Source: a virus
Lineage: Duplodnaviria; Caudoviricetes
Virus record (IMG/VR): IMGVR_UViG_3300033153_001737
Span: 1 to 59,232 of that record
Direction: 5' to 3' (one strand)
DNA length: 59,232 nt
This document shows, piece by piece, positions 1-59,232 of the stretch (positions are counted from its first letter, which is position 1; each line of letters starts with the position of its first letter). A program made the translations under genes and the position numbers. A model generated the notes under the pieces. The model was not told the origin of the DNA and searched no databases. It saw only the letters and a program-made list of their open reading frames with translations.

Positions 1-227
1 GGCGAAGACTGGATATTATTCCCAGATGCGGCTAATTTAGGACACGCATATGTTTACAGATATGGTCGCGTACTTGGCGCAATTTCAGCCGATGTAATTG
101 ACTTAGGTACTACTATTGGACAGAAGCCTGTCTACTATTCTGTTGACGGCATTGTCAGAATTAGCGATGCTAATTTCGGGGCTAACAATTCAAACAAGTG
201 GCACGGCTACATTAAACGTACTCATTT
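1..227. repeat. Terminal direct repeat, left copy (circular or terminally redundant contig)
   Basis: Matches 59006-59232 except at offsets 105 (a/c), 124 (a/c) and 138 (t/g). Confidence 0.97.
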
Positions 228-2643
228 TGACGGCTTAACTCCAGGTGGAAGTGCAGACGACTACGACGACTGGTATACGAAAAACCAAACGCTAGCACCT
301 CCAACTCGCGGTGTTTTCGGCGGGATAACAAAGGTAAAGATTTTATCCGCAAACGGTACTGACTCAACTATACTTACTGAAACTGGTGCATTTGTCGACA
401 TTGAGGACGAAATCGACTCAGGTGAATATGTTGCTGGAAATATAAACGAAACGCTAACGGTAGCGATAAATTCATGGACTAATTCCGACTCTGTTGTGAC
501 TGATGCGGTTACTGACTGGACTGGCGACACTGTATATTTAGCTCCTGTTGCTGGTTATGGTTTCAACGTCGGAATAACTACTTCAGCTTCTGGAGGTACT
601 TGGGCTGCTGGCGATTATGAATTAGCTCAGACATTTATATACGACGGGAATCAGGAAAGTTTGCCGTACAAGATGGATGGTACGGATATTTCTGTTGTAG
701 CAGACGACTTGATGACAATTACTGTCTCAGCAAATTCACCTTACAATCCGAGAATTACAGACGCAAGAATCTACATTAGACTTGCTGACTCTGACAACAG
801 TTGGGCTTTACTTACTCATATTTCGCTAAAAGAGGGTTGCATTTCAACTCTCGGCTCTGAATATTCTGGCTCGAATTTGTGGGGAATTGGCTCAAGCGCT
901 CTTACCTTAATGTTAGCATCTTGCATTTCCATCAGTGAGAATGTAGAAACTTACGAGACTCTTAACGGGTTTTCCCCAGACCAACAAGATATAGCTATTG
1001 GCGATGACGGGATGGGCTATAAGTGTGCTTGTATAGCAGGTAATAGAAAAGCATATGTAGCGAATGTTAGAATGACTGACTCTGACGGCGAGACTGTAAC
1101 TCGTGGCGACTTGATGCTGAAGTCTAGACCTAGCCGCTTCGACACGTTTTTATGGGAAGACAGGGTTGAGGTAGCAATAAACGACGGTGACGAAATTACC
1201 GCACTCATTCACTTTGCTGACCGAATACTGCAATTCAAGTCTAAAAAGTTGTATATTATAAACGTCAGCCAAGACATCGAATTTCTCGAAAGTCAACATC
1301 AATTCATGGGCATTGAAGGTTTATGGCAGGTTGCGATGACTAATATTGGGCCAGTGTGGTTTAACGAGAATGGCATATTTTTATACGACGGTAGTAAAAT
1401 CATCAACATCTCAGAGGACATTAAGCTCAAACAAGAGAAGTTGAATTGGACTTCATACTATGCAAACATTGAAGACGTTGCAATAAGTTACATAGCTAAA
1501 AAGGAACAGGTTTTTATATATCTGAACACTTCGGGCGACACGCTATATAGCGACGTATTAATATACGACATTAAAACACAGTCTTTCGTCACTGGTTACC
1601 GGAAGCTACTTAACGGCGTAGCTCTCAGTAAGGCAACCAACCTCATTAACGACTGGAATGACGACGTTGTATATGCAGGCTTTGGCGACGACAACCCACT
1701 ATTAAACTACCCGTCGAATAAGACTTTCGATTCCGATATTACTGGCTGGAGTTATTATACTTTTTTAAATTATGTCCCAGACAATTTCCAGATAGATAAC
1801 GCAACATTCGGCGTTGCGCAAGGTTCCTTATATTTTAGAGATATTGTAAACTCAAGCGGTAAAATTTATCAACATACAAGGACTGATGCTCCAATAGCTC
1901 TTGAGCCAGGAACCTATACGCTTACATTCTGGCTAAAGGGAGTTAACCTTTCTTCTGCCGGTAATTCCTGGGTGAGAGTATTTTTTACCGAAGAAACTGG
2001 CGACCCACCAGGCGGAGGTGTTGAAATATCGAAAGTTTCCGCATCGGTAGCCGACAATATAGGGAATGCCTACACTTCTGGGAGTTATGGTTGGATAGGT
2101 GACGTTGTTGGTCAGAGTTATAGTTTTACATTCACTATTTCGGGTACGCATTCGGCGGCATATCTTTGTTTCCAGCTAGGTAGAATACAGGCCGTAAACG
2201 GATATGCTGGCTTTTATCTTGACGACATCTCGTTTGATGTTGCGGCTAATGTTTATTTTAGAAAGTGGAATCCAGAACCAGCATTAAATGCAGATGACAG
2301 TCTCGAATTAATAAGTCGCGCTGAAGACTTCGGTACGCCAGACGTTGACAAGTATGCCTACAAGGTCAATATTACACACAACAAAAGCACGACTACTACC
2401 GCAGTATTAGCCTTGTATTATAAAGTTACTGACTTTGACGACACGACTACTGGTTGGGCTGAAGTAGCTGAATTTGTCGACAATAACGGTGACATGAAAT
2501 TGCAGGAGTTTGAATTTAGCAGTCGCGTTGACGACTTCAAGTCAATGCAGTTAAAAGTTGCTGTCAAAACTACTGGCAACATACAAGCCGACTTCGCAAT
2601 AGACGAGGTTTCGGTAGTTGTCAGGGATAAGGTAGTCGTATAA
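1..2643 (+). CDS. Tail nozzle/stabilisation protein (P22 gp10 / tail tubular B-like), C-terminal 880 aa of a ~964-aa ORF starting at 58754 and crossing the junction
   Basis: Frame 1 is open from position 1 and continues ORF 58754. Propeller-like stretches (DGDEITALIHFADRILQFK, GPVWFNENGIFLYDG). Lies just before the ejection genes. Function inferred. Confidence 0.65.
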   Translation, partial: GEDWILFPDAANLGHAYVYRYGRVLGAISADVIDLGTTIGQKPVYYSVDGIVRISDANFGANNSNKWHGYIKRTHFDGLTPGGSADDYDDWYTKNQTLAPPTRGVFGGITKVKILSANGTDSTILTETGAFVDIEDEIDSGEYVAGNINETLTVAINSWTNSDSVVTDAVTDWTGDTVYLAPVAGYGFNVGITTSASGGTWAAGDYELAQTFIYDGNQESLPYKMDGTDISVVADDLMTITVSANSPYNPRITDARIYIRLADSDNSWALLTHISLKEGCISTLGSEYSGSNLWGIGSSALTLMLASCISISENVETYETLNGFSPDQQDIAIGDDGMGYKCACIAGNRKAYVANVRMTDSDGETVTRGDLMLKSRPSRFDTFLWEDRVEVAINDGDEITALIHFADRILQFKSKKLYIINVSQDIEFLESQHQFMGIEGLWQVAMTNIGPVWFNENGIFLYDGSKIINISEDIKLKQEKLNWTSYYANIEDVAISYIAKKEQVFIYLNTSGDTLYSDVLIYDIKTQSFVTGYRKLLNGVALSKATNLINDWNDDVVYAGFGDDNPLLNYPSNKTFDSDITGWSYYTFLNYVPDNFQIDNATFGVAQGSLYFRDIVNSSGKIYQHTRTDAPIALEPGTYTLTFWLKGVNLSSAGNSWVRVFFTEETGDPPGGGVEISKVSASVADNIGNAYTSGSYGWIGDVVGQSYSFTFTISGTHSAAYLCFQLGRIQAVNGYAGFYLDDISFDVAANVYFRKWNPEPALNADDSLELISRAEDFGTPDVDKYAYKVNITHNKSTTTTAVLALYYKVTDFDDTTTGWAEVAEFVDNNGDMKLQEFEFSSRVDDFKSMQLKVAVKTTGNIQADFAIDEVSVVVRDKVVV

Positions 2644-2834
2644 TGCGCGACAAGCTCAAAAACTTACTCCATTCAAAAAGCGAGCGCACAGTAGTAAAGG
2701 TCGGCGCTCCAGTTGTTAGTGGAATGCGCGAAGGAGTTGTCGAAATTCGAGACATTAAAGGTCGCGGTTTATACTTGTGCGTGAAAAATAACTCAATACT
2801 ATACAGTATAAAACTTGACAAAGGTATTGTCTAA
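2643..2834 (+). CDS. Small hypothetical protein, probably tail-associated
   Basis: TAATG coupling to the upstream gene; 63 aa. Confidence 0.6.
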   Translation: MRDKLKNLLHSKSERTVVKVGAPVVSGMREGVVEIRDIKGRGLYLCVKNNSILYSIKLDKGIV

Positions 2835-2843
2835 GTTTATATT
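2815..2843 (+). promoter_or_regulatory. Sigma70-type promoter
   Basis: TTGACA-17 nt-TATATT, followed by the SD AAGGAG. Confidence 0.6.
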
Positions 2844-2861
2844 AACTAAGGAGAATTAAAA

Positions 2862-3453: not shown

Positions 3454-4443
3454 ATGTCTGATGCGTATTCAGGTTTCGTAAAATCGAGGGCTAGACTGTC
3501 CAATATGGAGACTAGGCGAGCTTACGAGGAGCGCGAAGCCGACAAAGCTGAGAAGATGGCATACATCGGTCTTGCCGGGAAAGGCTTGACGGCTGCTGCT
3601 AGTATTCGTAGAAATGTAGTTAGCGACAAATTTCTAGGCCAAAAGACCGAGGAAGGTTTGCAGAAGTTTACGATGAAAACGGATGGTGGTTTCGGTGCTG
3701 CTTTAAAGCGAGCTTATTTGCCTACCGAGAGTGACTATGAGTTGACTAGTGCTGGGATGAAGGAAATGACTCCAGTTGACGTTGAGAAGTTTGAATTAGA
3801 TGCGATTCCCGGGAAAAAAGGTATGTCAGTTTCTACCGGAAGTATAAAAGATACTGGTGTATTTAAAGACAAATTCCTCGCTGACAAGAAAAAGGATTTT
3901 AAGTTGCAGACGACTGACCCTGATATTCCGCCAGTAGGTCGCGAAGGAAGGCCGTTCACTACTACAAATTCTGAGGCTGTATTTAGAGGTGCTGAAAAAG
4001 CGCATGAAGCTAAAAATATAGTTGATGTAACATCTCAAGCTAGAGGGTATGACGCAATTAGCAAGTCAGGACAGCGACTATCAGACAAAGTATTTGCCGC
4101 AAAAGGTGGCGTTTCGATAAAAGAAAATATTGTAACAAAAGCATTTGGCGGGCCTGAAGCCCCTAAAGCACTTGACGAATTAACTTCAAAAGTGTCACTT
4201 CTTGGCGACAAGGCTGGTGCAATTACTAAAAGTTTAGGGCCAGCAGCTAGCGCGTTAAGTATCGGCTCAGATATTTTTAAAGGCACTACGGCAAAGACTG
4301 GGGCTGAACGAGACAAGGCTTTAGGCGATGCGGCATACACGGGAGCTGCATTAGCTGTAAATGCTATTCCTGGAGTTGGCCAGATTGCAAGTCTTGGAAT
4401 GACTATAGGAAAACCACTTTTTAATATGTGGAGGGACAGATAA
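3454..4443 (+). CDS. Putative internal virion/ejection protein 1
   Basis: 329 aa, A/G/K-rich, with a glycine-rich hydrophobic C-terminus (GAALAVNAIPGVGQIASLG); sits between the nozzle and the giant protein. Confidence 0.55.
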   Translation: MSDAYSGFVKSRARLSNMETRRAYEEREADKAEKMAYIGLAGKGLTAAASIRRNVVSDKFLGQKTEEGLQKFTMKTDGGFGAALKRAYLPTESDYELTSAGMKEMTPVDVEKFELDAIPGKKGMSVSTGSIKDTGVFKDKFLADKKKDFKLQTTDPDIPPVGREGRPFTTTNSEAVFRGAEKAHEAKNIVDVTSQARGYDAISKSGQRLSDKVFAAKGGVSIKENIVTKAFGGPEAPKALDELTSKVSLLGDKAGAITKSLGPAASALSIGSDIFKGTTAKTGAERDKALGDAAYTGAALAVNAIPGVGQIASLGMTIGKPLFNMWRDR

Positions 4444-4988
4444 TGCCTTTTGAAAATACTTGGCTAGGTAGAGCATTTAAAGGTGGCACAAGTCTTAGTG
4501 GTGGGAACTACATGGGTGATGTCAGGGGTAGTGATGTTGACTACGAAACTGATGTAAAATCATTCGAGACATTCCAGAAAAGCTTCGGGTTACTTAGCGA
4601 CCGCCTTGGTGAAATAGGTGGTGAATTTGAACAGCGAGGACAGTTCGCTGAAGAGGCTTCGGCGCTTGAGAGACAAGGAATTACAAGACAAGGGCTTTCG
4701 AGCCTTTCTCAGTCTCAGGAAGCTGAGGGCAGGACGGGTTTTGCAACTTCAGGCGGTGCCGAACAGGCTGTCGAGGATACCCGAGCTGGCTTTCTTGACC
4801 AACTTCGGGGCAATTCACTGTCGTTAATGCGCGAGAAATTCAACCTAGGGCTTCAGGAAAAAGAATCGCGATTCGGGATGCAGACTAACATGTTAGACCT
4901 GTACGCTAACTATCAGTCTGGCAGAATCAATTTAGACGCAGACGCTATGGGTGGTTTTGACATCGATAAAGAAGTGGGGTTAGGATAA
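4443..4988 (+). CDS. Putative internal virion/ejection protein 2
   Basis: Likely start is the ATG at 4443 (TAATG overlap); G/Q/E-rich and helical. Confidence 0.5.
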   Translation: MPFENTWLGRAFKGGTSLSGGNYMGDVRGSDVDYETDVKSFETFQKSFGLLSDRLGEIGGEFEQRGQFAEEASALERQGITRQGLSSLSQSQEAEGRTGFATSGGAEQAVEDTRAGFLDQLRGNSLSLMREKFNLGLQEKESRFGMQTNMLDLYANYQSGRINLDADAMGGFDIDKEVGLG

Positions 4989-6520
4989 TGGCTAGAGCTA
5001 GCAATGTAGAGCTAATTCGTTCTATTGGAAGTATTGTCGGTGATGTATCGGGAATGTTACAGGCGACTCCTCAAGAGTTGCAAGCTGCCAGAATTGCCGC
5101 TGACGAAACTTCACAGACTCGTACTATGGAATTTCAGGAAGAGATGAAGGAAGTCGATTTCCAGAATCGAATGTTAGCTGACGAAGTACAGCGACGGGGT
5201 GATGAATTTGAAGACAATGCTAAGTTGATAAATGCAGCTAAGTTGGACATGGCTAACAGGGGAGTTAATTACGAGGCATTTGTAGCTGATGGCGGAGTTA
5301 CCGAGAAACAAAATAGTTTAGTAAATGTTATCAATCGAAAGTATGACAACGCTCTCGGTATTAGCGAAATGCAACTACAGAAACAAAACGACGAGTTGTC
5401 ACATATGATAAACGTACTCGGTCACGACACGCAATTGCAGAACGAAGCTCGCGGCGTATTTGACATGGCTAGAGTTCTTGAAGAAGGTGGCGACGACTTT
5501 ACAATATCTAAAGAAGAATGGGAACTAGCTGGCGACAAGCTCACGGGTGACGAATACGGATATACAGCCGAAGATGTCGAGCGATTGAAAACACTTATGG
5601 CGCCTCAGTATGATGCTCAAATGCAGAGATTCGGCGAGCAACTTGACCGAAGTAAAACTGTCGCTGAAAAAGAAGGCATTAAATCTCGAACCGAATTAAC
5701 TAAAGTGCAGACTGAAAAGTTAAGAGATGAGATAGATGCGAAAGCTAAACTTGACGAATTCCGCAAGGCTGGCTACAAAACAGAGGAAGAAAAGAGTGAA
5801 TATTTTGTTAGTAATATAGATGCAATTGCCCAAAGCGTTACCCTTAATGATGAAGATGACCAAAAAGAATTCAATACAGTACTTGGTCAAATAAAAGAGA
5901 TAAATCGAAAAGGAATTGACCCATCTTTAGCTTCTGATGCAATAGAAAGTAAACTTGATATTTTAATCACGGGTAAAGATTGGGGAAGTACTGGCTGGAA
6001 TGATGCTATTCTAAATGAATTTTTAGCCAGTGACAATCCTGATGAATTCTTGTTAGAAAAGAAACTCGATTTTAACGGTAGAGATGGAAAGTCTGACCCT
6101 AAGAATCAGCGATATGATGCGATAATTAAGCTTCACTCACTGAATCGAATTCTTGATAAAACTCAGGAAGTAGGTTTAGCTGATGGTAGTATTGAATTGA
6201 ATCTTGAAGGAATGGGCGATGCGGATGTCGAAACGACTGTTGTGGAAGATATAATTCCAGCTAAAGTAGATTCTAGCGAAGAAGTTGTTGTCTCTGATGA
6301 ATTAAGAGTTGAGATAAGAGCAATGGATAGTGAAATCTCATCAATAAGGTCAAGCATAGAGGGTCTAAAAAGGAGTAGAAGTCAAAGAGGAATTGGCGAT
6401 TTATACAAAAGAGAAAAGAAATTAAAATTGGCAAGAAAAGCTAAGAATGAAATTCTGAAATCAATGACGAAAAAAGAGTCAAGAAAAGTAGCTAGAAGAA
6501 AACAAAAACAAGCTCAATAA
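4988..6520 (+). CDS. Putative internal virion/ejection protein 3 (coiled-coil)
   Basis: 510 aa, acidic and helical with a very basic C-terminus; TAATG coupling. Confidence 0.55.
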   Translation: MARASNVELIRSIGSIVGDVSGMLQATPQELQAARIAADETSQTRTMEFQEEMKEVDFQNRMLADEVQRRGDEFEDNAKLINAAKLDMANRGVNYEAFVADGGVTEKQNSLVNVINRKYDNALGISEMQLQKQNDELSHMINVLGHDTQLQNEARGVFDMARVLEEGGDDFTISKEEWELAGDKLTGDEYGYTAEDVERLKTLMAPQYDAQMQRFGEQLDRSKTVAEKEGIKSRTELTKVQTEKLRDEIDAKAKLDEFRKAGYKTEEEKSEYFVSNIDAIAQSVTLNDEDDQKEFNTVLGQIKEINRKGIDPSLASDAIESKLDILITGKDWGSTGWNDAILNEFLASDNPDEFLLEKKLDFNGRDGKSDPKNQRYDAIIKLHSLNRILDKTQEVGLADGSIELNLEGMGDADVETTVVEDIIPAKVDSSEEVVVSDELRVEIRAMDSEISSIRSSIEGLKRSRSQRGIGDLYKREKKLKLARKAKNEILKSMTKKESRKVARRKQKQAQ

Positions 6521-6559: not shown

Positions 6560-9500
6560 ATGCCCACAGAAGCCCAAGTAAGACAGTCTGTGCTTAGTGC
6601 GTACAAAGCAAAAGGTTACAGCAACCCTCCAGAAGAAAATGTACAGGCGTCCATAGACCAGTACTTTAAAAAATCTACAAATAATACAAACTTCTCTCGC
6701 GGAAAAGCACTGTATGATAAATATGGTGACGAAGCCGCGTCTGGTTTTACTGACCAACTAGCATTTAATCTTAGAAACCATGCTCGCGAATTTAAATCGG
6801 GTACTGTCGGTATGGTAGGTTATTTAGCTGGCGCTCTAGGGTTGGACAACGCCTCTATAATCGACTACTCAGAAGAATTGAGAGCTGACGGACAGAGAGC
6901 AATGCAAGAAGAAGTTCGTAACGACGTACAGTTGCAAGCCCTTCTAGCGTGGCAAGCTGACGACCCAGTGACATTCACGGGTGAGAATGCCAACTTCTGG
7001 GAATGGGCTATGATTAAACGCGGAGCCGCATCTGCACTTCCTTCTATTATTGAAATGACTGCAACTTCAGCAATTGGTTATTTGACGGGCTTAGGTGGCG
7101 TTGCATTAGCTAGTAAATTAGGCAAAGGTGTCAGTGCTTCGAGTAAGGCTTTGAAAGCTACTAAGGCGTTGAATGCGACTGAGCTATCTTCATTAGCTAC
7201 CGCTTTTAAGGTTGAATCTACTGTCGAGAACGTCGCGTTAGCGATGACTAAGCGCGGCATATATGATAAGACCTCTAAGGGTTTAGCTATGGCCGGAATG
7301 ACGGGCCTGGAAGGTTCTAGTCAATATAATGAGGCTATGCGCTATCTAGTAGACGAGGAAGGTATGTCAGTCGATGAAGCTAGTGACAAAGCTGGCCTTT
7401 CAGCCGTCATGTATGCACCAATAGCCGGAGCGCTAGAATACCTACCTATGGGACACTGGGCTAAAGGATTAGGACTGTGGAAAAAGGGAGCTAACGAAGG
7501 TACTAAAATATTCGCACGGTCAGCAACTAAATTATCTAAAAAACTAGCCGAACAACAATTACCAGTCAGGATGATAACAGGTGCAGTCAAACAAGCAACT
7601 ATGGAAGCGACCACTGAGTGGACTCAATATATGGCTCAAGTTGCTATGGATGAAGCTTTTGTTAAAGGCGATTACGACACACCCGAACAAGCACTAGAAG
7701 CAATCACGGCTCGCTGGAAAGAGTCGAAGTTTAATGCTGAAGCTAGAGAGTCAATTTACGGCGGGTTCTTGATGGGTAGCGGAATGGGAGTATTTACCCC
7801 AACTGACGGAATCGCTAAAGAGGCTAAAGATACTGAGACATTAGCTGGTCAAGCAATGGCTGCCGCCGAGGAAGCTATGCGTCCCGAAGCTTCAGCAACT
7901 ACAGTAGAAGCCGAAGACATTCTGAAAAAAGCTAGTGAGGCAGAATCAGAAGAAACATTTACTTCTGGCGTGACACCCGAAACTGAAGAAGAGCGTGGAC
8001 AGCGAATTGCTGAAGAGAAGGCAACTCAGGCTGCTGAAGCTATTGAAGGCGAGCAACAACCCGACGTTCCAGATGTCGGCGACACTCAGCGACCTGGAAA
8101 GAAAAAAGCTTCAAATGCAAGAGGCGAAGCGGCATCTTACAAATCTCAGATATTAAAGAATCCCAATACTACGGCTGAAGAAAAAGAAGAGGCTGAAAAG
8201 GCTTGGGAGCTTGGGAAGGGTGACAATTCTAAGTGGGGTCAAATTTCTGAAGACCTTGGTTTTATGGCTGGTAAAATTCGCGAACGAGGAAAAGATGTCA
8301 AGGATGAAAATGCAGAGTTAACTCCAGCTGAACAGGAAAAGTTAATCGAATTAATTGCCGACCCTGAGATGAAATCAGTTGATAGGTCTGCTATGATGTT
8401 AGAGCCTAAAGAACAGCGAAAGCTTATGGCTGATTTAGATTCACCTATATTTGAGAAGGAAAAACCAGCCGAACAAGCCGGATATGAACTTGATAGAAAA
8501 ATAACAATCAAAGCGATGCGTAAGGTTGCTGAAGATAATAAAATTGATATACCTACTACTCTAAAGCTTAAAAAAGATATTGCTGACCATATTGATTCTG
8601 AGTTAAAAAAGCTTTCTGAAAAGCCTAAAGTTTCAGATAAAAAAATTAAACCTAGTGAGATAGAAAGACTTACTAGTATTGTAGAGAATGGAAAGCTACG
8701 CGAAAAAGAAATGTCAAATATTGAATGGGTTCAGTTTGACAAGGCGAAAAAACGATTGAAGGTATTAACCAAAAAATCTACTAAGCCAATTAAGCACGAA
8801 GTTACTATTGACAAGTCTCCAGAATTATCTAAAGAAATGTCTAACGTTCTTCCTGAACAGAAAAACCTTTCGTCTGCAATTGCTAAGGCTATTAATAAGA
8901 CAGGTAAAAAAGTATCTGTTATCTATGATGATACTATTGAAAGTTATGCTAATGCTGTTGATACTGGCACTGAGTTGATAGTTAGGATTAACAACGAAAG
9001 GCTTAAACCTGATTCTAAAGAACGCGGTAGAGTTATACTTCATGAGGCAACTCACCTTATAACTGCTACGGAAATCGAAAGCTGGACTGAAGATGATTCA
9101 AGACAGAAGAATAACGATGACCCCGTAAGTCGCCTTGCTGATTTGTACGACTATGTACTTGGAGAGATGAGTCAAGAAGTTGGTTATTCTGAATATTGGG
9201 AGTTAAGAAAGCGACGTAAAGAATTAAAGGCAGAGAATAAGACATTAAATGCTAAGGATTCTAAGCGCGTTCGTGAACTTCAAGATACTTATTATGGACT
9301 TGACAATTTAAAAGAGTTCGCTTCAGAAGTATTTACGTCAAAGGATTTCCAGGCAAGACTTCAGGGGATGAGGGTAGTTGGCGAGACTACTGTCTGGGAT
9401 AAATTTGTTCAGATAATTATGGATATTATCGGCATAGAGGCGGACAGCGATGTGTTGACAGAAGCACTAGCCGCAGTTATCGAAATAGCCGGACTTGAAG

Positions 9501-12500
9501 TTGAGACTGTTGCGACTAAAAAACCTACAAAGAAGCCAGCTAAGAAAAAACCATCTCGCGGAGAATATAAACGCACTACTCACGGTGGTAAAATTGCAGG
9601 TGGTTTATTTGCCGACTTAACTGGCGAAGAGGTTAGTATTCAAAAGGCTGTCGAAGCTGACCCTAAAAAAGTTGACATCAAAGGGCTGATAGACAGGGCT
9701 AAAGACCTCAATTATACTAAGCTAGGTATCAAGCGCTACGGTTCAGTAACGGCGTTAGCTGACACCCTGAGAGCTTATTACAACGGTACTATCACCGATG
9801 TTAAGCTACAAAAAAGCATGAGTATCTATACTCGTAATTTCTGGAACGCAATCGACAAGTCACTAAGGGATACTGATTTTTCAGACCTGATAGACCGAAA
9901 CAATCCGATTAACGACTTTGCAGATTTCACAGCACCTCAAGAAAAGAGCGACCCTAACGACGAGATTCCAAATCAGAACGGTACTGAGAAGAATATTTTC
10001 ATAGGCTGGCTTGGCGTTGACATGACTTCAAAAGAATACGCGACGATGATGGAGAAGACAAAAGAATATAACACTCCTTCTGAATATACAGCGTGGTTAG
10101 AAGGATGGATGAAGAAGACTTTCAAGAGTCGCGTACCGTCCGAGAGGCTTCATTTATTGGACAAGGGTTTATCAAGACAAGTGAGGAATGTTGTGCATAG
10201 TTTTTATCAGAAGAAACATTCGCTTGTTAATCGCTGGTTTCCAGGGATACAAGATAAGTTAAGTAGACTATATTTTGAAGTAGAGTATGTAGCTAAGAAA
10301 TACCAAGAAGGTCGCTATGGTCACGAGAGAGCATCGTGGATTTCATCGTCTGAACAGATGCCCGGACGTACTTGGGACTTGTCACAGAATAAGTTGAATC
10401 CGAAGTATGAGACTAGCAACTTCACCGAACAGGACAAAATCAGCGGATTAAGAGATGATGATATTCGCACGGTTCATTTGTCTGCCTCACAAATAGTTGA
10501 CAAGCGATTCAGGGGCGACGGTAGTGTATTTCATCAAAAAAGACATGCCGGAATTACTCCTGAATTAATGCAGGAATTAGATTCTGACTTCTCTGAACGC
10601 TGGGAGTTTGACGACTTCGATGCCCTTCTGACCGTTATCGGCGCAAAAGGTGGCGGACGTACTCAGTTGATTATGACAACAGTTGAGGAAAAGTGGCACG
10701 GCGTACTAACTCAAGAACAGTTTGAAGAATATTTAGATGCTGAAATTGAGGCTGGTAACTTGACTGACAAACACAAGTATGAGTTTGTCAAGTCGGCTGA
10801 TACTATGGATGGCAAGTTTCGATACGCACAGTTAATAGGTCAACATGAATGGGCTAAAAAGAATCGACATGACCGCTATGCAATGCCAGGTTATTGGAAA
10901 GGTATTGAAGACTTTCTGAATCGTTTAAGAATTGACCTTGCTGAGGGTTACAGTATTCAGGGTATGAAGAAAGCAATCGAAGGTGGTCGAATTAATAACA
11001 AGCTGATGATAATTCCAGTTGAGACTATTGTTCGATATAATGGACAAGAAACTACTTACGGGAAGTTCGACGGGGCTACCTTTTCATCTAGGCGCTGGTT
11101 TGACGTAGTCCAGGGTTTAATCGGGCAGAAGCCAGGAGTTGACGAGTTCGACTTGTCGTTTGTCAAGTCAGTATTCAGACACCGAAGTAAAGACGGACAG
11201 GATTATTTAGGAGCTAAACATGCACAGTTTACGGCTCCAGCTGGGATGGAATTTGTCAACCCTGAGACTGGCGAAGTTATTGCTAAAGTTGTGATGGACA
11301 AGGTAGGCGAGAAGTCAATACTTGTTGACGCTAACAATAATCAGTTTGACCATATATCATCTGACAACGAAATCAAAAACAAGGCTGGTAGCTTTGAAGA
11401 CTATTATAAACTTCACGACCTTGGCGAAGATGACATTAAGATTCTGTTCACTGGAAACAACAAGGCTAAGGACGTTTCGGTAGTACCGTTTGCGGCAACC
11501 GAGTTTATGTTATCGCACGAAAGTACCGACAACATTAAACGCTTGATTGATATTCTATCAGATAATTATATTGCACAGGCTGACGAGTATATCACTAAAT
11601 TGTACGAGTTCCTGGACGGCAAGACAGTTGACGGTAAGTTTATTCCTGGACAACAGTTGTTAGTAGATGAATTAAAGCGCGACATCCTAGCAGGTGAAAC
11701 ACCTCCTGAGATACAGCTATTGATAGGCTTAGACCCTACTGGCGCGCTACTACTTCATCCTAGCTCGGCTATGGAGCTTACAGCGTACTTTAATAACAAG
11801 TACTTACTTGACACAGCATACAAGGGAAGACGACTTGACGGGACTTCTACACAGGCGTATTTAAAGCCACAAGCAGGAATGGACATCAATCCTGGAGAGG
11901 TCAAATTCTCTATCGGTAATAAGCCGATGTTATTACAGGCTCAGAAAATGTATTCAGAAGCTATGGATATTAGTATCGAGGACTTCAGGGCCATGCCTGA
12001 GATTGAGATGATAGACTTGCTCAACGCTTGGCTCGAAGACGAAGGTGGCTTCTACGTACTTGGCTCTAGACAACCTGTTAACAAGTGGACTGCCGTAAGG
12101 CCATTCAAGGTAAAAGGTTTTGACCGACTGTCTCGCGGCGCAGAAGTATTTCACAACTACGATGATGTTATGAAAATTCTCGAAGGTGACTGGGATGGCG
12201 ACAAAACATACTTTGACGCATTCCGCAAAGCTGACGATGAATTGTTAGCACTGTACAAAGATGTTATCAATAACGACATCTCGAAAATTGACAGACAGTT
12301 ACCACTAACTCACTTTGGCGAAAAGCTAGACAAGGGCGACAAAAACAGTTTCGCTAATCTCGAACAAAGACTTCAAGTTGCTGAGAATATTATGGCAGCA
12401 GACGGAGCAGTCGGCTTGTCAGTATCTAATGCAGCATTGTTTAAAAGCTTGGCGTTCAAAAACTTCAAGCTGTCGTTTAAAGTCAAGGGTAAAGAAGATG

Positions 12501-19055: not shown

Positions 19056-19270
19056 TGTGACTGCCTGTAGTTTAGTATCATTGCAATATTCGACACATCG
19101 ACCCAGTCCTCAGACATAATGTTCTCTTTCATTCTTTCTTCCAACAATTCATCTGATATTGCCTCGCTCGGCTCATCCCATCCGGTATATCCCTGTGTTT
19201 CTTTTTGATTAAACTTAGTGATACATTTTGAATGAAATGCCGTTAATGCTTTTTGTAGTTTACTATTCAT
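19052..19270 (-). CDS. Hypothetical phage protein
   Basis: 72 aa; GYTGWD...DWVDVSNIAMIL resembles common small phage proteins. Confidence 0.55.
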   Translation of the reverse strand: MNSKLQKALTAFHSKCITKFNQKETQGYTGWDEPSEAISDELLEERMKENIMSEDWVDVSNIAMILNYRQSQ

Positions 19271-37941: not shown

Positions 37942-38224
37942 AATCAATACTCCTTTTGAATGAAACTTAACTAAAATCCGAATAACCGAATCCGGAAACC
38001 GAGGGGTACGTGTTGCAATATAGGTCACGTTTCAAAATTACCTCATTTTCTAGACAAAAGTTGCTGTTACACGTCCTAATTGTCTCACTTCCCGGCAAAA
38101 AGTTGTTATCGAACGAAAGTTAACGAAGTCGAAGTTGTCAGTAGTTGCGTTGCTTGACTATATAATGAAAGTTGGTGTGAAAAATTCTGTTGTTTTTTGT
38201 CATTTTTCGGTTTAGGTTAATAAC

Positions 38225-45681: not shown

Positions 45682-47370
45682 ATGGCTAACGATTATAGCG
45701 GAATTACCAGACCTTATGGTGATACTCCCCGCACCGTTCAAGCGCCAGCTACCGACCTTAATCAGTCCGACCTAAATGAAATTGGTCGCTCTGGTTCGCC
45801 GGATACTGGTGACCTAAGACGCTCGTACAATTTTGGAAAGGATTATACCAAGCTGAGTTATCAGCGTGACCCGTATCTTCACTTTCTGAATATGATGCGT
45901 AAAATTCCAACAGATGACCCCAAATTCAAATCAACTACCCGTCGCGGTGGAGCTAGTCTTCGTCGGTTTGGCTACGTTGTTGGTCTTGGAGCCGTCGGTG
46001 AAGTATGTACCGATGATTTGACTGAAACGCTTTCTTCAGGTGCATGGGATAGCGCAGGTTTGCGTGAATGTTTACAGGCTACCGCTCCTGGAATGGGCGC
46101 AACATCATTCTCTAACGCCTCGTTTGACACCACTCAGGGAAATTTACAGTCAATTATGATTATGGCTGACTACAAACGCGTAGGTCAGTTGCAGAATCGT
46201 GTTGGTTGGACTAGTTCTGATGCAGGCTTTATCGCATTAGGTGAGGCCGGAACTAAACCTAATTGGTTCCATCCGAATCAAACGATTCAGATTCCAGTTA
46301 GTTCAACAGCTCCTGCTGACGCATTTAACACTCCTACTGATTATGTGATTGCTCGCATTATCTCCGTTTATGATGTTACTGCCGCTAATGGCGGTACTAC
46401 ATACGGCGAGGGCGTGATTCTGAATTGTCGTCTTATCAAGACTCAGTCAACGCACATCTATCCTACTGCATATTATGGCGCAGGCTGGGATGGAAGTACT
46501 CATACTGACCTTCTGAGTGTAACTCACTCAACAGGGACTTCAAGTCTTGCTCAGAAACTAGAGCCTATGCGCTCCTATGTTATGGGTTCAGCTTATCACG
46601 AGTTGTCAGGTTATGGCGAAAGTCATCGCGACCAGTTGTATTCAACCGATTATGGTCTGACTCAGGAGTTTAAAGAGACTGCATTGATGTCATATCGTGC
46701 AATGTCTACCGTGCTGAAGTTCGAGAAAAATCCTTGGACTGAGGAATGGCAAGATAAGATGTTGGCTATCAACCTTCAGTTAGCTTATACCGCTTACTTC
46801 GGTGAACAGTATGAAGATGCTGACGGAATTACTTATACTGAGGGTATTATCAACTATATCCTCAATAACGGTAATCAGTTTGCATTATCATATGCCGACA
46901 AAGATGTTGACGACTTCCTAGAAGATATGTCAGCATTTAACGACCCACGTTTCAAACCCGACATGGGCGCGAATACCTATTACTTCGTACCTACTCGCAC
47001 CTGGAACTGGTTAGCTAAACAATCCGGTTATCAGAAAAACAACGTTGAAATCTCACCAAACTATCGCCTACAGGCTTCCGGTAAGGGTAAGAAACTCGGC
47101 GTTCCAGTACGAACGATTGACGCAGACGGAACGACTATGAAAGTTGTCCGTGATGTAAACCTTGACCGCACAAACGTCAAGATGGTAGCCATTGACATGA
47201 ACGGTTGTGCAATTCGCCCACTTGTTGGTAACGGATATAACAACGATGTTACGGTTCATGTTGGCGTAAAAGATAAAGCAAACTCGGGTGAGAGTTACAG
47301 GGTTGACTTGATTGATGCTGATATTGGCTTCAAGCACAAAGTTCCTGAACTTCACGCGGTTTGGGTTTAA
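45682..47370 (+). CDS. Major capsid protein (HK97 fold inferred)
   Basis: Position after the scaffold; DLRRSYNFG..DPY..KIPTDDPKFK, TQEFKET, AYFGEQ..YTEGII; 562 aa with an apparent insertion. Confidence 0.8.
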   Translation: MANDYSGITRPYGDTPRTVQAPATDLNQSDLNEIGRSGSPDTGDLRRSYNFGKDYTKLSYQRDPYLHFLNMMRKIPTDDPKFKSTTRRGGASLRRFGYVVGLGAVGEVCTDDLTETLSSGAWDSAGLRECLQATAPGMGATSFSNASFDTTQGNLQSIMIMADYKRVGQLQNRVGWTSSDAGFIALGEAGTKPNWFHPNQTIQIPVSSTAPADAFNTPTDYVIARIISVYDVTAANGGTTYGEGVILNCRLIKTQSTHIYPTAYYGAGWDGSTHTDLLSVTHSTGTSSLAQKLEPMRSYVMGSAYHELSGYGESHRDQLYSTDYGLTQEFKETALMSYRAMSTVLKFEKNPWTEEWQDKMLAINLQLAYTAYFGEQYEDADGITYTEGIINYILNNGNQFALSYADKDVDDFLEDMSAFNDPRFKPDMGANTYYFVPTRTWNWLAKQSGYQKNNVEISPNYRLQASGKGKKLGVPVRTIDADGTTMKVVRDVNLDRTNVKMVAIDMNGCAIRPLVGNGYNNDVTVHVGVKDKANSGESYRVDLIDADIGFKHKVPELHAVWV

Positions 47371-57099: not shown

Positions 57100-57549
57100 A
57101 TGTTCGGCGAAGAAAAAATAGTAACGGCTAAAATGAGAAGGGAAGTCACGATGGCTTGGCTTAAGCAAAATGTAACTGTTGGTAATTGGATTATTATAAT
57201 CGTGTTGATTGCAGGTTGGATAGGTCAGGCATATGTAAGCGACTACAAAAGAGGTATCTTCGCTGACGAAATTAAGAAACTTGACGGCGTTGAGGTTGGA
57301 GAGATTGAGCTAAATTCCGACTATCGTAAACAAGGACATTCGTTTACGGAATCCGACGACATGAGTCTTGAGATTGCGTATTCTCATGCAATTAACAAGG
57401 ATGTTCACATGCCATTCGCCGAAAAGGTAAAAGTGTTCGTCCCAAGAACTGAGTTCGAGACTACAGTAAAGCATCTCGAAAAGGTGTCCGTTAAGCAGGA
57501 CAAGATTTATGACCTTCTTATCGACATGAGTAGCAGACTACCGAAGTAA
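57100..57549 (+). CDS. Single-TM protein in the lysis region
   Basis: WIIIIVLIAGWIG followed by a soluble part; the start may be ATG 57151. Confidence 0.55.
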   Translation: MFGEEKIVTAKMRREVTMAWLKQNVTVGNWIIIIVLIAGWIGQAYVSDYKRGIFADEIKKLDGVEVGEIELNSDYRKQGHSFTESDDMSLEIAYSHAINKDVHMPFAEKVKVFVPRTEFETTVKHLEKVSVKQDKIYDLLIDMSSRLPK

Positions 57550-57555
57550 AACTAT

Positions 57556-57621
57556 TGGCAGTGGGTTGTTTTGTCTCCGTCAAAAGAAAACAAACACACC
57601 AGCTCGCCCACTGCCATTTTT
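57556..57621 (+). terminator. Nested hairpin/attenuator before the lysis genes
   Basis: TGGCAGTGGG/CCCACTGCCA plus TTTTT; inner TTGTTTT/AAAACAA. Confidence 0.6.
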
Positions 57622-57635
57622 AAAAGGAGCTAGAG

Positions 57636-57812
57636 ATGAAGTTTGACATAACGATTAATTTTCATCATCTATTTTCAGTACTTTTATTGATTTCCGTTAC
57701 TTGGATTTCATTATATTTAAAGGCTGAGGAAGTTGCGTTAATAGGTATTCCAGCCGTAGTCGGTTTCTATGCCAATAAGCACTATCAAGACCGGAAAAAT
57801 GGAACAAATTAA
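57636..57812 (+). CDS. Putative holin, 58 aa (missed by the ORF track)
   Basis: MKFDITINFHHLFSVLLLISVTWISLYLKAEEVALIGIPAVVGFYANKHYQDRKNGTN; two TM segments, charged tail, SD AAAGGAG. Confidence 0.6.
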   Translation: MKFDITINFHHLFSVLLLISVTWISLYLKAEEVALIGIPAVVGFYANKHYQDRKNGTN

Positions 57813-58320
57813 ATCAATATTAATAGTCGGACTTGTATTGATAGCAGTCGCATTATATTACAAGCCTGCTGTCTATGAACCGCCTGTTTATGTCGAAATC
57901 CCTGCGTTGATTGACGATAGTACTAGGGCTGTAATTATTTCTAGCGCGAAGCGAGACTCAGTAGTAGTCAGATATATTGACAGGGTTCGCTGGACGACAA
58001 AAGACTCATTAAGAATACAGGACTCGATTCAAATAGTGAGGCTACCCTATGTCAGTATTCTTACAGATTCGGCTGAATATAGGCTTTCGAGACTTGATTC
58101 GACTCTAGGTGTAGGTTTTAGTCTGAAAATAGGGTTGGCAGATACCGTAATTCTTGAACCATTTGACACTTTTATTCACGACTTTTGGCTGGATAGTTTA
58201 GTGTGGAAGGTCGAGAAACAGCCAGAAGTTAAGCCGCTAAATTGGCTAGAGTGGGTGATGGCGTACCCTGACAAGGTTGCAATAACAGCATTGGTCGCAA
58301 TGATAATAGGTAAACTATGA
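57799..58320 (+). CDS. Putative spanin-like lysis protein
   Basis: N-terminal TM, DS-V/I beta-rich middle, hydrophobic C-terminus; between the holin and lysin candidates. Confidence 0.45.
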   Translation: MEQIKSILIVGLVLIAVALYYKPAVYEPPVYVEIPALIDDSTRAVIISSAKRDSVVVRYIDRVRWTTKDSLRIQDSIQIVRLPYVSILTDSAEYRLSRLDSTLGVGFSLKIGLADTVILEPFDTFIHDFWLDSLVWKVEKQPEVKPLNWLEWVMAYPDKVAITALVAMIIGKL

Positions 58321-58754
58321 GAATATTAGTAGACAGATTTTACGATAACGGTGATGCTACCATTGGCGTAATGATGATAGATACCAAGTTTGAGGCATTT
58401 ACACTAGAGGACGAGAGGCGGACGAAAAAGGTTAATGGTGAAACGCGAATACCTGCTGGATTATATTTTGTCGAATTTCAAAAAATTGTCACCCCTAAGA
58501 CTAATATGTACAGGAGAAAATACGAATGGTTTACGTTCCACCTCCAGATTAAAAATGTCGAAGGATTCACAAATGTTTATCTACATATTGGTAATTACGA
58601 TACCGATACTGATGGTTGCGTTTTACTTGGGTCTACTGCTGACTCTGACTCTGGTACGATAGGGCGAAGCACTAAGACATTCAAGCGTTTTTACAAAAAA
58701 GTTAGCACAGCTCTAGAGGCTGGAGAGCAGGTAAGTATGAGGATAATTAACTGA
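58317..58754 (+). CDS. DUF5675-family protein, putative endolysin
   Basis: ATIG..FTLED..GETRIPAGLY..FTNVYLHIGNYDTDTDGCVLLG..S...F. Confidence 0.8.
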   Translation: MRILVDRFYDNGDATIGVMMIDTKFEAFTLEDERRTKKVNGETRIPAGLYFVEFQKIVTPKTNMYRRKYEWFTFHLQIKNVEGFTNVYLHIGNYDTDTDGCVLLGSTADSDSGTIGRSTKTFKRFYKKVSTALEAGEQVSMRIIN

Positions 58755-59005
58755 TGCCTAAGCGACTGTTTAAATTTAAAGGTTTTTGGGGCGGTATAAA
58801 CGACGTGTTTAGCCCGCGTGACTTGTCGCCAACTCAGGCAGTTAAAGCTCAGGATGTTGATGTCTCACAGTTGGGTAAAGTCAGGATGATAGGCAGTGAA
58901 GAAGCTCATGAAATTGGCACTGTCGAATTGTACGACTGTATTCAAAATTACGGACTATACTTCTACTCTACTGATAGACTTGATGGCGCTAGCGCACTAG
59001 AAACT
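58754..59005 (+). CDS. N-terminal 84 aa of the tail nozzle ORF, which continues at position 1
   Basis: MPKRLFKFKGFWGGIND..PRDL; in frame with position 1. Confidence 0.75.
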
Positions 59006-59232
59006 GGCGAAGACTGGATATTATTCCCAGATGCGGCTAATTTAGGACACGCATATGTTTACAGATATGGTCGCGTACTTGGCGCAATTTCAGCCGATGT
59101 AATTGACTTCGGTACTACTATTGGACAGCAGCCTGTCTACTAGTCTGTTGACGGCATTGTCAGAATTAGCGATGCTAATTTCGGGGCTAACAATTCAAAC
59201 AAGTGGCACGGCTACATTAAACGTACTCATTT
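59006..59232. repeat. Terminal direct repeat, right copy
   Basis: 227 nt matching 1-227 with 3 mismatches. Confidence 0.97.

What the first reader, a model, noticed from the sequence alone, without database searches (positions are those of the whole stretch)
1..59232. crAss-like virion transcription apparatus in a compact 59-kb genome without DNA polymerase or primase
Seen: RNAP plus zincin, three ejection-type genes, a RuvC-like resolvase and a DUF5675 lysin, but replication is only DnaB, a possible DnaD-like protein, SSB, Sak and an exonuclease. No polymerase, primase or integrase was recognised. Known: described Crassvirales are typically about 90-100 kb or larger, encode their own DNA polymerase and primase, and infect Bacteroidota, which largely lack SD usage. 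Here AGGAG SDs are common and promoters look like TTGnnn-16/17-TAYATT. Inference: an undescribed phage lineage that brings its own transcription but borrows host replication, probably on a non-Bacteroidota host.
Basis: partly seen in the sequence, partly recalled or inferred. Interest (0 to 1): 0.75.

Follow-up and report, generated by a model that had tools for sequence, protein, structure and literature searches.

The report
Compact phage carrying crAss-type RNA polymerase
This is a complete 59-kb genome of an undescribed environmental phage whose giant late protein joins a protease-like domain to an RNA polymerase of the kind so far known from the much larger crAss-like gut phages, while the phage has no DNA polymerase or primase of its own.

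Summary
The core observation holds. The window is a whole virus record: 59,005-nt unit plus a 227-nt terminal repeat. A 3,654-aa late gene (6560-17524) has no Pfam, PHROG or PDB sequence match. Folded, residues 1300-2450 are a single-chain two-barrel RNA polymerase; the longest structural alignment is to phi14:2 gp66, alongside QDE-1 and RDR2. The GDWDGD motif is nearly invariant in homologues. A conserved HExxH domain about 1,050 residues upstream is sequence-homologous to the zincin domain of phi14:2 gp65 (hhalign 95%).

No PolA, PolB, Toprim, Prim-Pol or integrase was found in six frames, here or (PolA, PolB, Toprim) in five relatives. Replication genes are DnaB, Rad52/Sak, a PD-(D/E)XK nuclease, a RuvC-like resolvase, dUTPase and an SSB-like protein.

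It is not a Crassvirales member. The capsid protein is SU10/DUF5309-type, the portal P22-type, and TerL and portal show no similarity to phi14:2. Shine-Dalgarno use is 56% against 9% in phi14:2.

Relatives are only metagenomic contigs of 54-62 kb. Virion packaging, early transcription and use of host replication are inferred. The host is unknown. The "ejection", "DnaD-like" and promoter claims remain unverified.

The parts
1..227 (.). Terminal direct repeat, left copy. The unit genome is 59,005 nt.
   Evidence: Repeat 1-227 = 59006-59232 with 3 mismatches at 105, 124 and 138.
59006..59232 (.). Terminal direct repeat, right copy.
58754..59143 (+). 5' part of a tail fibre or spike-like gene that runs across the repeat junction. 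It stops at TAG in this copy.
   Evidence: This ORF and ORF 496-2643 both match one 844-aa protein of relative G001. Position 138 reads TAT in the left copy and TAG in the right copy.
1..2643 (+). Rest of the same tail gene. The frame is open from base 1; joined across the junction it would give about 964 aa.
   Evidence: No Pfam or PHROG match.
3454..6520 (+). Three genes (329, 186 and 510 aa) directly upstream of the giant gene. They are candidate internal or ejection proteins, by position only.
   Evidence: No family match. Orthologues lie at the same place in G001. No strong hydrophobic segment.
6560..17524 (+). Giant 3,654-aa polyprotein: conserved N-terminal domain, zincin domain, two-barrel RNA polymerase, and a C-terminal module of about 1,200 aa.
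   Evidence: In relatives G001-G003 the C-terminal module is a separate gene of 1,106-1,183 aa.
9032..9706 (+). Zincin-like metallopeptidase domain (residues 825-1049; HEATH at 828-832, nt 9041-9055).
   Evidence: BLASTP to phi14:2 gp65, E 1.4e-5 against 114 ORFs. Family profile against gp65: probability 95.4%, E 1.9e-8. gp65 was the only one of 62 phi14:2 ORFs to match.
10457..13909 (+). Single-chain two-barrel RNA polymerase core (residues 1300-2450).
   Evidence: AF2 pLDDT 81.4. Fold matches to QDE-1, phi14:2 gp66, RDR2, P23-45 gp96 and bacterial beta'. Among BFVD viral models, after three unnamed entries at TMq 0.69-0.70 and four weaker unnamed ones, most named hits are crAss-like phage proteins.
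12185..12202 (+). Catalytic metal-binding motif GDWDGD (residues 1876-1881).
   Evidence: The D, D, G, D columns are nearly invariant (at least 90%) among 22 homologues and invariant in two other alignments.
13907..17521 (+). C-terminal module with hydrophobic segments near its end. Function unknown.
   Evidence: Hydrophobic stretches at residues 3385-3403 and 3527-3555. The nearest named Atlas clusters carry LPD39/LPD38 polyvalent-protein domains, a weak lead. No match to phi14:2 proteins.
17585..18370 (-). MmcB-like or DNA-repair nuclease-like protein.
   Evidence: phrog_5429, 5.7e-25. Pfam MmcB-like 7.9e-4, below the cut-off.
19263..19772 (-). RuvC-like Holliday-junction resolvase.
   Evidence: phrog_1770, 2.1e-10.
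20423..21721 (-). DnaB-type replicative helicase with both its N- and C-terminal domains.
   Evidence: DnaB_C 1.5e-48, DnaB 6.1e-32.
22175..23023 (-). D12-class N6-adenine DNA methyltransferase.
   Evidence: PF02086, 6.4e-21.
23023..23859 (-). DUF932 protein, function unknown.
   Evidence: PF06067, 1.6e-10.
24708..25208 (-). dUTPase.
   Evidence: PF00692, 9.6e-16.
26187..26711 (-). HNH endonuclease.
   Evidence: PF13392, 1.1e-13.
30500..31156 (-). Possible single-strand DNA-binding protein (DUF669-like).
   Evidence: No Pfam or PHROG match. Atlas feature score 0.94 and TM 0.42-0.48 to DUF669 clusters. Acidic C-terminus ...DGDEQAPF. A lead only.
32046..32729 (-). Rad52/Sak-type single-strand annealing protein.
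   Evidence: PF04098, 1.4e-5, 25.5 bits against a cut-off of 20.3.
34123..34857 (-). PD-(D/E)XK exonuclease.
   Evidence: PF12705, 4.9e-7.
36195..38224 (-). Low-coding region of about 2 kb between the divergent gene blocks. It holds small ORFs, terminator-like hairpins and short repeats, and is the likely early or regulatory region.
   Evidence: Gap in the gene calls. Sequence read directly. Repeats. Terminator-like sites. No Rfam match.
38225..39193 (+). Small terminase subunit.
   Evidence: phrog_51, 2.3e-5. Terminase_2, 1e-5.
39725..40072 (+). GroES/Cpn10-like co-chaperonin.
   Evidence: PF00166, 8.3e-8. phrog_3188, 1.9e-6.
40656..42344 (+). Large terminase subunit.
   Evidence: phrog_38, 2.7e-41. 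About 22% identity to Mu-like phage terminases.
42450..44765 (+). Portal protein, P22-type.
   Evidence: PF16510, 2.4e-31. phrog_156, 1.6e-31.
45682..47370 (+). Major capsid protein: HK97 fold with a large extra domain, of the SU10/DUF5309 family.
   Evidence: PF17236, 4e-10. Model pLDDT 79.5. Fold nearest to the Vibrio phage VP1 capsid (E 2.8e-16), then to the phicrAss001 capsid (E 7.2e-12).
57100..58754 (+). Probable lysis cassette: three small membrane proteins (149, 58 and 183 aa) and a DUF5675 protein (58317-58754).
   Evidence: Hydrophobic segments. DUF5675, 3.7e-28. The lysis role is inferred.

Best explanation
The window is the complete genome of a probably short-tailed phage. It belongs to an undescribed environmental lineage with genomes of about 54-62 kb.

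The last gene of its late operon encodes a 3,654-aa polyprotein. It has four parts: a conserved N-terminal domain, a zincin-like metallopeptidase homologous to phi14:2 gp65, a single-chain two-barrel RNA polymerase of the phi14:2 gp66 / QDE-1 type, and a C-terminal module of about 1,200 aa.

Inferred mechanism, by analogy with phi14:2 and N4. The polyprotein is packaged in the capsid, possibly cut by its own zincin domain, and ejected with the DNA. The three proteins encoded just upstream may go with it. Its polymerase then transcribes the first genes of the minus-strand block before any phage protein is made. The host RNA polymerase probably takes over for later genes.

The phage has no DNA polymerase or primase. 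Its DnaB-type helicase, an SSB-like protein, a Rad52-type annealing protein, an exonuclease and a RuvC-like resolvase would recruit the host primase and replicase and drive recombination-dependent replication. This resembles SPP1-type phages (recalled, not tested).

Shown here: genome completeness, the fold and motifs of the polymerase, homology of the zincin domain, the families of the replication genes, the absence of polymerase and primase families, and the use of Shine-Dalgarno sites.

Inferred: packaging, ejection, processing, early transcription, use of host replication, and the host.
For: Completeness.

Polymerase:
- Model pLDDT 81.4.
- Foldseek PDB hits: QDE-1 6.9e-9, gp66 1.1e-8 with TMq 0.43, RDR2, then bacterial beta'.
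- VIA-align: gp66 Z 11.8 over 689 aligned residues, RDR2 Z 13.9 over 496, QDE-1 Z 9.9 over 552, P23-45 gp96 Z 8.2.
- BFVD: three unnamed viral entries at TMq 0.69-0.70 and four weaker unnamed ones rank first. The named hits from rank 8 on are mostly crAss-like phage proteins, and phi14:2 is at rank 19.
- GDxDGD is nearly invariant (at least 90%) in the 22-sequence alignment and invariant in two others.

Zincin: BLASTP 1.4e-5 and hhalign 95.4% to gp65, which was the only hit among 62 phi14:2 ORFs.

Architecture:
- The phi14:2 preprint says that gp65, gp66 and gp67 are virion proteins, that they are fused into one polyprotein in some crAss-like phages, and that gp66 transcribes early genes (passages).
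- N4-type virion polymerases are also fused to zincin domains (Iyer 2017, passages).
- Homologues carry changing accessory domains, as polyvalent injected proteins do.
- Gene order runs TerL, portal, capsid, tail, three genes, polymerase at the end of the late block. This parallels phi14:2.

Replication.

Shine-Dalgarno use.
Against: - No experiment or proteome shows that the protein is in the virion.
- The polymerase core has no detectable sequence similarity to gp66: hhalign 0.6%, profile against PDB sequences none.
- No shared early-promoter motif was found. The low-coding region upstream of the minus-strand block contains sigma-70-like hexamers and terminator-like hairpins, so the host polymerase could transcribe early genes.
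- The promoter-like count is not above shuffles: 48 against 39.3 +/- 5.4.
- The window's own polyprotein shows no recognised accessory domain.
- Small replication-block proteins of unknown function (DUF932, and proteins of 224, 187, 182, 176 and 127 aa) could hide a primase that profile HMMs miss.
- ORFs under about 80 aa were not scanned one by one.
Confidence: 0.7

Rival explanations
1. It is a streamlined, highly diverged member of the order Crassvirales that lost half its genome, including the polymerase and primase.
For: - The transcription module is shared: zincin homology and polymerase fold.
- The phicrAss001 capsid is the second-nearest fold to the capsid protein, aligned over 551 columns against about 270-317 for generic HK97 capsids.
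- Late-gene order is parallel.
Against: - The capsid protein does not hit Pfam Crass_capsid, which phi14:2 hits at 8.4e-200. It hits SU10_MCP instead.
- The capsid profile against the phi14:2 capsid gives probability 1.9%.
- TerL and portal show no BLASTP similarity to phi14:2.
- The portal is P22-type.
- Only 1 of 82 window ORFs has a credible phi14:2 match; the other four rows have E 0.002-0.01.
- No IHF was seen in the ORFs scanned.
- Shine-Dalgarno use is 56% against 9%.
- The genome is 59 kb, against p-crAssphage's 97 kb and 145-192 kb for the Zeta and Epsilon groups (review passages).
Confidence: 0.1
2. The giant protein is an injected polyvalent protein, but its two-barrel core is not the early transcriptase. 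It might make primers or R-loops for replication, or RNA from RNA or single-stranded DNA as QDE-1 does, or be a structural remnant.
For: - The lineage has no primase.
- QDE-1-type enzymes copy single-stranded templates without promoters (preprint passages).
- Sigma-70-like elements and terminator-like hairpins lie in the early region.
- Homologues carry conflict-type accessory domains.
Against: - The catalytic aspartates are nearly invariant or invariant across the family, so a remnant is unlikely.
- The only characterised phage enzymes of this fold that are virion-borne (gp66, and P23-45 gp96) transcribe early or pre-early genes.
Confidence: 0.15
3. The record is incomplete or chimeric, and the polymerase and primase genes lie on a missing part.
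For: IMG/VR labels the record 'linear'. The terminal repeat has 3 mismatches.
Against: - The ends overlap by 227 nt, and a gene reads across the junction.
- CheckV gives 100%.
- Relative G001 has terminal repeats, is 58,087 nt and collinear, and also lacks PolA, PolB and Toprim_2.
- Capsid-gene relatives sit on contigs of 54-62 kb.
Confidence: 0.03

Closest known systems
Transcription block of Crassvirales (Cellulophaga phage phi14:2 gp65-gp66-gp67; PDB 6VR4)
   Same: - Single-chain two-barrel RNA polymerase with a DxDxD-type motif in the second barrel; 689 residues superpose on gp66.
- A zincin domain homologous to that of gp65.
- The gene sits at the end of the late structural block.
- Fusion into one polyprotein is reported for some crAss-like phages.
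   Different: - No sequence similarity in the polymerase core.
- The motif is GDWDGD rather than DFDID.
- The zincin domain lies N-terminal to the polymerase in the same chain, not in the gene downstream.
- The N- and C-terminal modules have no counterpart in phi14:2.
- The rest of the genome is unrelated and half the size.
N4-like phages (Schitoviridae), virion RNA polymerase gp50
   Same: A late protein of about 3,500 aa with a central polymerase, fused to a zincin-like domain, ejected to transcribe early genes (Iyer 2017 passages; abstracts listed).
   Different: The N4 polymerase is T7-like; here it is two-barrel and no Pfam family is hit. That N4-like phages encode their own DNA polymerase is recalled, not tested.
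Thermus phage P23-45 gp96, a virion polymerase fused to the tape measure
   Same: A virion-borne single-chain two-barrel polymerase fused to a large structural protein (passages). Fold match Z 8.2 over 372 residues.
   Different: A siphovirus tape-measure fusion, and a much weaker structural match than gp66. No zincin link was shown.
Vibrio cholerae podophage VP1 (PDB 9IN6) and SU10-type capsids (Pfam PF17236)
   Same: The capsid profile hits the VP1 capsid sequence at 3.1e-10, and VP1 is the nearest fold, E 2.8e-16. The Pfam family is SU10_MCP.
   Different: No capsid match at E <= 0.001 in the GenBank phage set, so no similar capsid sequence is deposited there. Whether VP1 has any virion polymerase was not examined.
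SPP1-type replication that depends on host enzymes (recalled, not tested)
   Same: A phage DnaB-type helicase with an SSB, an annealing protein, an exonuclease and a resolvase, and no polymerase or primase.
   Different: No origin-binding protein or helicase loader was identified here. The comparison rests on gene content alone.

Membership tests
Crassvirales | Major capsid protein of the Crassvirus family (Pfam PF23898) | tested here: not met
   The window capsid hits only PF17236 at E <= 0.01. The phi14:2 control hits PF23898 at 8.4e-200. Profile against the phi14:2 capsid: probability 1.9%. The fold is nevertheless second-nearest to phicrAss001.
Crassvirales | TerL and portal related to those of crAss-like phages | tested here: not met
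   BLASTP to phi14:2 TerL and portal gave nothing below E = 2. The window portal is P22_portal; the phi14:2 portal is not. Only one Crassvirales genome was compared, and no tree was built.
Crassvirales | IHF subunit genes in the conserved structural block | tested here: inconclusive
   No IHF/HU match among the structural-block ORFs scanned. No six-frame search for that family was run.
Crassvirales | Transcription block with a large DxDxD two-barrel polymerase | tested here: met
Crassvirales | gp65-type zincin domain in the transcription block | tested here: met
   hhalign 95.4%, E 1.9e-8. gp65 was the only hit among 62 phi14:2 ORFs.
Crassvirales | DnaG-family primase and a family A or B DNA polymerase (most groups) | tested here: not met
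   Six-frame searches were negative, with controls positive.
Crassvirales | Bacteroidota host | not testable with these tools
   Indirect evidence only. Shine-Dalgarno cores precede 56% of ORFs, against 9% in phi14:2. MAG bins that hold relatives are inconsistent.
Single-chain two-barrel RNA polymerases (QDE-1 / gp66 type) | Two double-psi beta-barrels in one chain, joined by a connector | tested here: met
   Model strands 182-340 and 456-612 are separated by a helical stretch. Full-length alignments to gp66, QDE-1 and RDR2.
Single-chain two-barrel RNA polymerases (QDE-1 / gp66 type) | Aspartate triad in the second barrel | tested here: met
   GDWDGD at 1876-1881. Nearly invariant in alignment A1, invariant in A2 and A4.
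Single-chain two-barrel RNA polymerases (QDE-1 / gp66 type) | Template-dependent RNA synthesis | not testable with these tools
   Needs biochemistry.
Polyvalent injected proteins (Iyer et al. 2017) | Giant multidomain protein of a late operon with a zincin-like peptidase and changing effector domains | tested here: met
   Zincin. Pfam hits among 16 homologues scanned: cpYpsA in 3; AAA_30, AAA_19 and SAP in 2 each; FtsK_gamma, 2OG-Fe(II) oxygenase, GNAT and Peptidase_M78 in 1 each. The window's own copy shows none.
N4-like virion RNA polymerase | T7-like single-subunit polymerase domain | tested here: not met
   No Pfam match. The fold is two-barrel.

The most novel reading that the evidence does not exclude
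The injected polyprotein is the phage's only nucleic-acid polymerase and does double duty. After cutting by the zincin domain, its QDE-1-like enzyme transcribes the early genes. It also lays down the RNA primers or R-loops from which the host replicase starts phage DNA synthesis. A replication module with DnaB alone would then suffice, without any primase. On this reading the zincin-polymerase cassette is a portable infection starter that has moved between unrelated podophage chassis, the Crassvirales being only one of them.
Probability: 0.12. Interest if true: 0.85.

Novelty: new variant of a known kind. Interest (0 to 1): 0.62.

Why it matters
Within the library searched, virion-borne two-barrel RNA polymerases are described for crAss-like phages of Bacteroidota and, in a different form, for Thermus phage P23-45.

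This lineage shows the same zincin-plus-polymerase module in genomes about half the size. These genomes have a different capsid, portal and terminase set, no DNA polymerase or primase, and translation signals of hosts that use Shine-Dalgarno sites.

Three things follow:
- The known range of the enzyme widens. This bears on its proposed link to the eukaryotic RNA-interference polymerases.
- A smaller, simpler genome becomes available for studying how a giant polymerase is packaged, processed and ejected.
- Taking over transcription and taking over replication are shown to be separable phage strategies.

The family has at least 84 clusters at 50% identity, so enough sequences exist for evolutionary work.

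Tried and rejected
Searches on the giant protein that gave nothing:
- Sequence searches against Pfam, PHROGs and PDB chains.
- Polymerase profile against PDB sequences.
- hhalign against phi14:2 gp66.
- tblastn of the polymerase core against GenBank phages at E <= 1.
- N-terminal and C-terminal profiles against 29 large phi14:2 ORFs, all below 1% probability.

Other searches against GenBank phages: the DNA and capsid searches found nothing, and the portal search found one weak hit.

No tRNA and no Rfam family.

Host:
- Close homologues of the giant protein are binned in a Ca. Scalindua and a Brocadiales MAG.
- Capsid relatives sit in bins named bacterium, Dehalococcoidia, Poseidoniales, Roseobacter and Anaerolineales.
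- I take this as binning noise and name no host.
- The MAG with the 91% capsid copy (G006) showed no polymerase-core match and no hydrazine-synthase domain. It is incomplete, so this shows nothing.
- 30 of its relatives had no capsid match.
- The polymerase alignment found no relative in 185,579 species genomes, so there is no sign of a prophage.

Expression: no sequencing run was listed for 30000-39999, and no RNA holder was listed.

Promoters: a search for an extended early-promoter motif gave only one 27-nt pair, 37215-37241 and 37402-37428.

Technical failures:
- Alignment A1 was too diverse for locus searches, so a closer alignment, A2, was used.

Papers: supplements were not opened. The crAss-like genome lists in the supplements of Yutin 2021 and Drobysheva 2021 may hold small environmental relatives that I could not see.

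Literature searches for a description of this lineage found none in the library searched.

Full report
WHAT THE WINDOW IS

The 59,232 bases are one IMG/VR virus record with CheckV completeness 100. Bases 1-227 repeat at 59006-59232 with three mismatches, so the unit genome is 59,005 nt.

Genes fall into three blocks that match the GC-skew switches:
- plus strand, 1-17524;
- minus strand, 17585-38028;
- plus strand, 38225-59143.

There is no tRNA and no Rfam family. Nothing suggests a non-standard genetic code.

An ORF ending at 59143 and the ORF at 496-2643 both match a single 844-aa protein of a relative. One tail gene therefore runs across the repeat junction. The left copy reads TAT where the right copy reads TAG.

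THE GIANT GENE

ORF 6560-17524 (3,654 aa) gave no hit in Pfam, PHROGs or PDB sequences. It carries HEATH at residue 828 and GDWDGD at 1876-1881.

An exhaustive HMMER search with residues 1300-2450 found 84 cluster representatives among 1.84 billion proteins. Most are 2,000-3,900 aa long. In an alignment of 22 of them the D-x-D-G-D columns are nearly invariant.

AlphaFold2 on that alignment gave a confident model, pLDDT 81.4 and pTM 0.77. The fold comparisons were:
- Foldseek against the PDB ranks QDE-1 first (E 6.9e-9), then phi14:2 gp66 (E 1.1e-8, the highest query-normalised TM at 0.43), then plant RDR2, then bacterial beta' subunits.
- An independent all-against-representatives alignment gives the longest superposition with gp66 (689 residues, Z 11.8). 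RDR2 follows with 496 residues (Z 13.9) and QDE-1 with 552 (Z 9.9). The P74 and P23-45 polymerases score Z about 8.
- Among predicted viral structures, three unnamed entries match at TMq 0.69-0.70 and four more unnamed entries follow at TMq 0.32-0.38. The named hits from rank 8 on are mostly crAss-like phage proteins, with phi14:2 at rank 19 and P23-45 at rank 27.

The core is therefore a single-chain two-barrel RNA polymerase of the gp66/QDE-1 kind.

At sequence level it is a separate family. The profile against gp66 gives 0.6% probability. The profile against all PDB sequences gives nothing at E <= 10. tblastn against 50,697 GenBank phage records gives nothing at E <= 1.

THE ZINCIN DOMAIN

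An HExxH lies 700-1200 residues upstream of the catalytic motif in 32 family members.

BLASTP of all window ORFs against all phi14:2 ORFs gave one credible hit. Residues 825-1049 of the giant protein match residues 242-414 of gp65, the 'RNA polymerase associated protein' (E 1.4e-5).

A 32-sequence profile of the region matches gp65 at 95.4% probability (E 1.9e-8, 104 columns). It matches none of the other 61 phi14:2 ORFs of 150 aa or more; the next best is 2.4%.

The phi14:2 preprint states several relevant points (passages):
- gp65 holds a zincin-like protease domain;
- gp65, gp66 and gp67 are virion proteins;
- in some crAss-like phages the three are fused into one polyprotein;
- gp66 transcribes the early genes.

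Here the zincin domain precedes the polymerase in the same chain. In phi14:2 it is encoded downstream of the polymerase gene.

The N-terminal 450 residues and the C-terminal 1,200 residues have no counterpart in phi14:2. In relatives G001-G003 the C-terminal part is a separate gene of 1,106-1,183 aa.

Sixteen long homologues carry changing Pfam domains:
- cpYpsA in 3;
- AAA_30, AAA_19 and SAP in 2 each;
- FtsK_gamma, 2OG-Fe(II) oxygenase, GNAT and Peptidase_M78 in 1 each.

That is the pattern of the injected 'polyvalent proteins' of Iyer et al. 2017. The same paper notes that N4-type virion polymerases are fused to zincin domains (passages).

REPLICATION AND OTHER GENES

Confirmed genes:
- DnaB with both domains, D12 methyltransferase and DUF932;
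- dUTPase and HNH endonuclease;
- Rad52/Sak and a PD-(D/E)XK nuclease;
- a RuvC-like resolvase and a DNA-repair nuclease-like protein.

The 218-aa protein at 30500-31156 has no HMM match. It resembles DUF669 clusters in the Atlas and ends in an acidic ...DGDEQAPF tail, so it is a possible SSB.

Nothing supports a DnaD-like protein.

Six-frame searches of the window found no DNA_pol_A, DNA_pol_B, Toprim_2, Prim-Pol or Phage_integrase at E <= 1, and all controls rang. The largest minus-strand ORF is DnaB at 432 aa.

In five relatives, PolA, PolB and Toprim_2 were found in 0 of 5 and DnaB_C in 5 of 5. Three of these relatives are at least 96% complete.

STRUCTURAL MODULE AND KINSHIP

Gene assignments:
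- TerS, a GroES-like protein, TerL and the portal are recognised.
- The portal is P22-type.
- The capsid protein is in Pfam SU10_MCP, not Crass_capsid, which phi14:2 hits at 8.4e-200.

The capsid model (pLDDT 79.5) is nearest to the Vibrio podophage VP1 capsid (E 2.8e-16). The phicrAss001 capsid is next (E 7.2e-12, 551 columns). Both are well ahead of generic HK97 capsids, which align over about 270-317 columns.

Comparison with phi14:2:
- TerL and portal have no BLASTP similarity.
- The capsid profile does not match its capsid.
- The order of late genes nevertheless parallels phi14:2: TerL, portal, capsid, tail, three genes, polymerase.

DUF5675 follows three small membrane proteins, which fits a lysis cassette.

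The capsid family has at least 115 clusters at 90% identity. Long contigs are mostly 54-62 kb.

Shared ORFs with relatives:
- G001 (58,087 nt, terminal repeats) shares 34 of 82 window ORFs in the same order.
- G002 shares 11 of 82.
- G003 shares 10 of 82.

HOST

Shine-Dalgarno cores precede 40 of 76 genes, against 8% at control positions. The same measure across genomes gives:
- the window: 56%;
- three relatives: 54-70%;
- phi14:2: 9%, with its own control at 7%.

Bacteroidota largely lack Shine-Dalgarno use (established knowledge, recalled), so a Bacteroidota host is unlikely.

MAG bins that hold relatives disagree, so I name no host.

The proposed promoter pattern is only mildly enriched: 12 matches against about 4.6 expected. 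Generic sigma-70-like sites are not above shuffles.

VERDICT

The finding is real.
- 'crAss-like' applies to the transcription module, and loosely to the capsid fold and gene order. It does not mean membership of Crassvirales.
- Packaging, early transcription, host-dependent replication and the host are inferences.

Seven full-text searches found no description of such a lineage in the library searched. Supplements were not available.

Noticed in passing
window 138 and 59143: The two copies of the terminal repeat differ at a codon of the tail gene that crosses the junction. The left copy reads TAT (read-through, about 964 aa). The right copy reads TAG (stop after 129 aa). The cause could be population variation, an assembly artefact or a real truncation. 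The G001 orthologue is a single 844-aa protein.
   Followed up: partly
window 13907-17521; G001 8175-11726; L022:12800-16117; L026:3383-6898: The C-terminal 1,200 aa of the giant protein is a separate gene in three relatives (2782+1183, 3108+1106 and 3716+1172 aa) but is fused in the window.
   Followed up: partly
proteins P0009, P0017, P0018, P0020, P0025, P0031, P0032, P0054, P0079: A subgroup of the polymerase family has the catalytic motif as HEADHDGD, with histidines around the aspartates, instead of GDxDGD.
   Followed up: no
window 36195-38224, minus strand: A low-coding stretch of about 2 kb. It holds a cysteine-rich small ORF starting near 37625, an SD-preceded ORF of about 80 aa from 37941 followed by a strong terminator-like hairpin near 37690-37665, and a 27-nt repeat pair (37215-37241 and 37402-37428).
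   Followed up: partly
window 39725-40072: A GroES/Cpn10 homologue sits between the terminase subunit genes. phi14:2 carries a GroEL-like gene near its own terminase.
   Followed up: no
L023:378-2144 (G002) and L025:17514-19289 (G003): Distant relatives replace the classical DnaB with proteins of about 590 aa. These have a DnaB_C-like domain at residues about 366-522 and an unassigned N-terminal domain of about 360 aa, which might be a primase.
   Followed up: partly
G006:C12:1510-3195 and G006:C319:3091-3951: One MAG holds two different capsid genes of this lineage, at 91% and 67% identity to the window's.
   Followed up: no
BFVD entries A0A516M7V2, A0A516LSI3, A0A516LUR1: Three unnamed UniProt viral proteins match the polymerase model at TMq 0.69-0.70 with 16-17% identity. 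Members of this family are therefore already deposited but unannotated.
   Followed up: no
window 22175-23859: A Dam-type methyltransferase and a DUF932 protein lie side by side and are conserved with G001 at about 50% identity. G002 and G003 also keep a weak match (about 23% identity) to the DUF932 protein.
   Followed up: no
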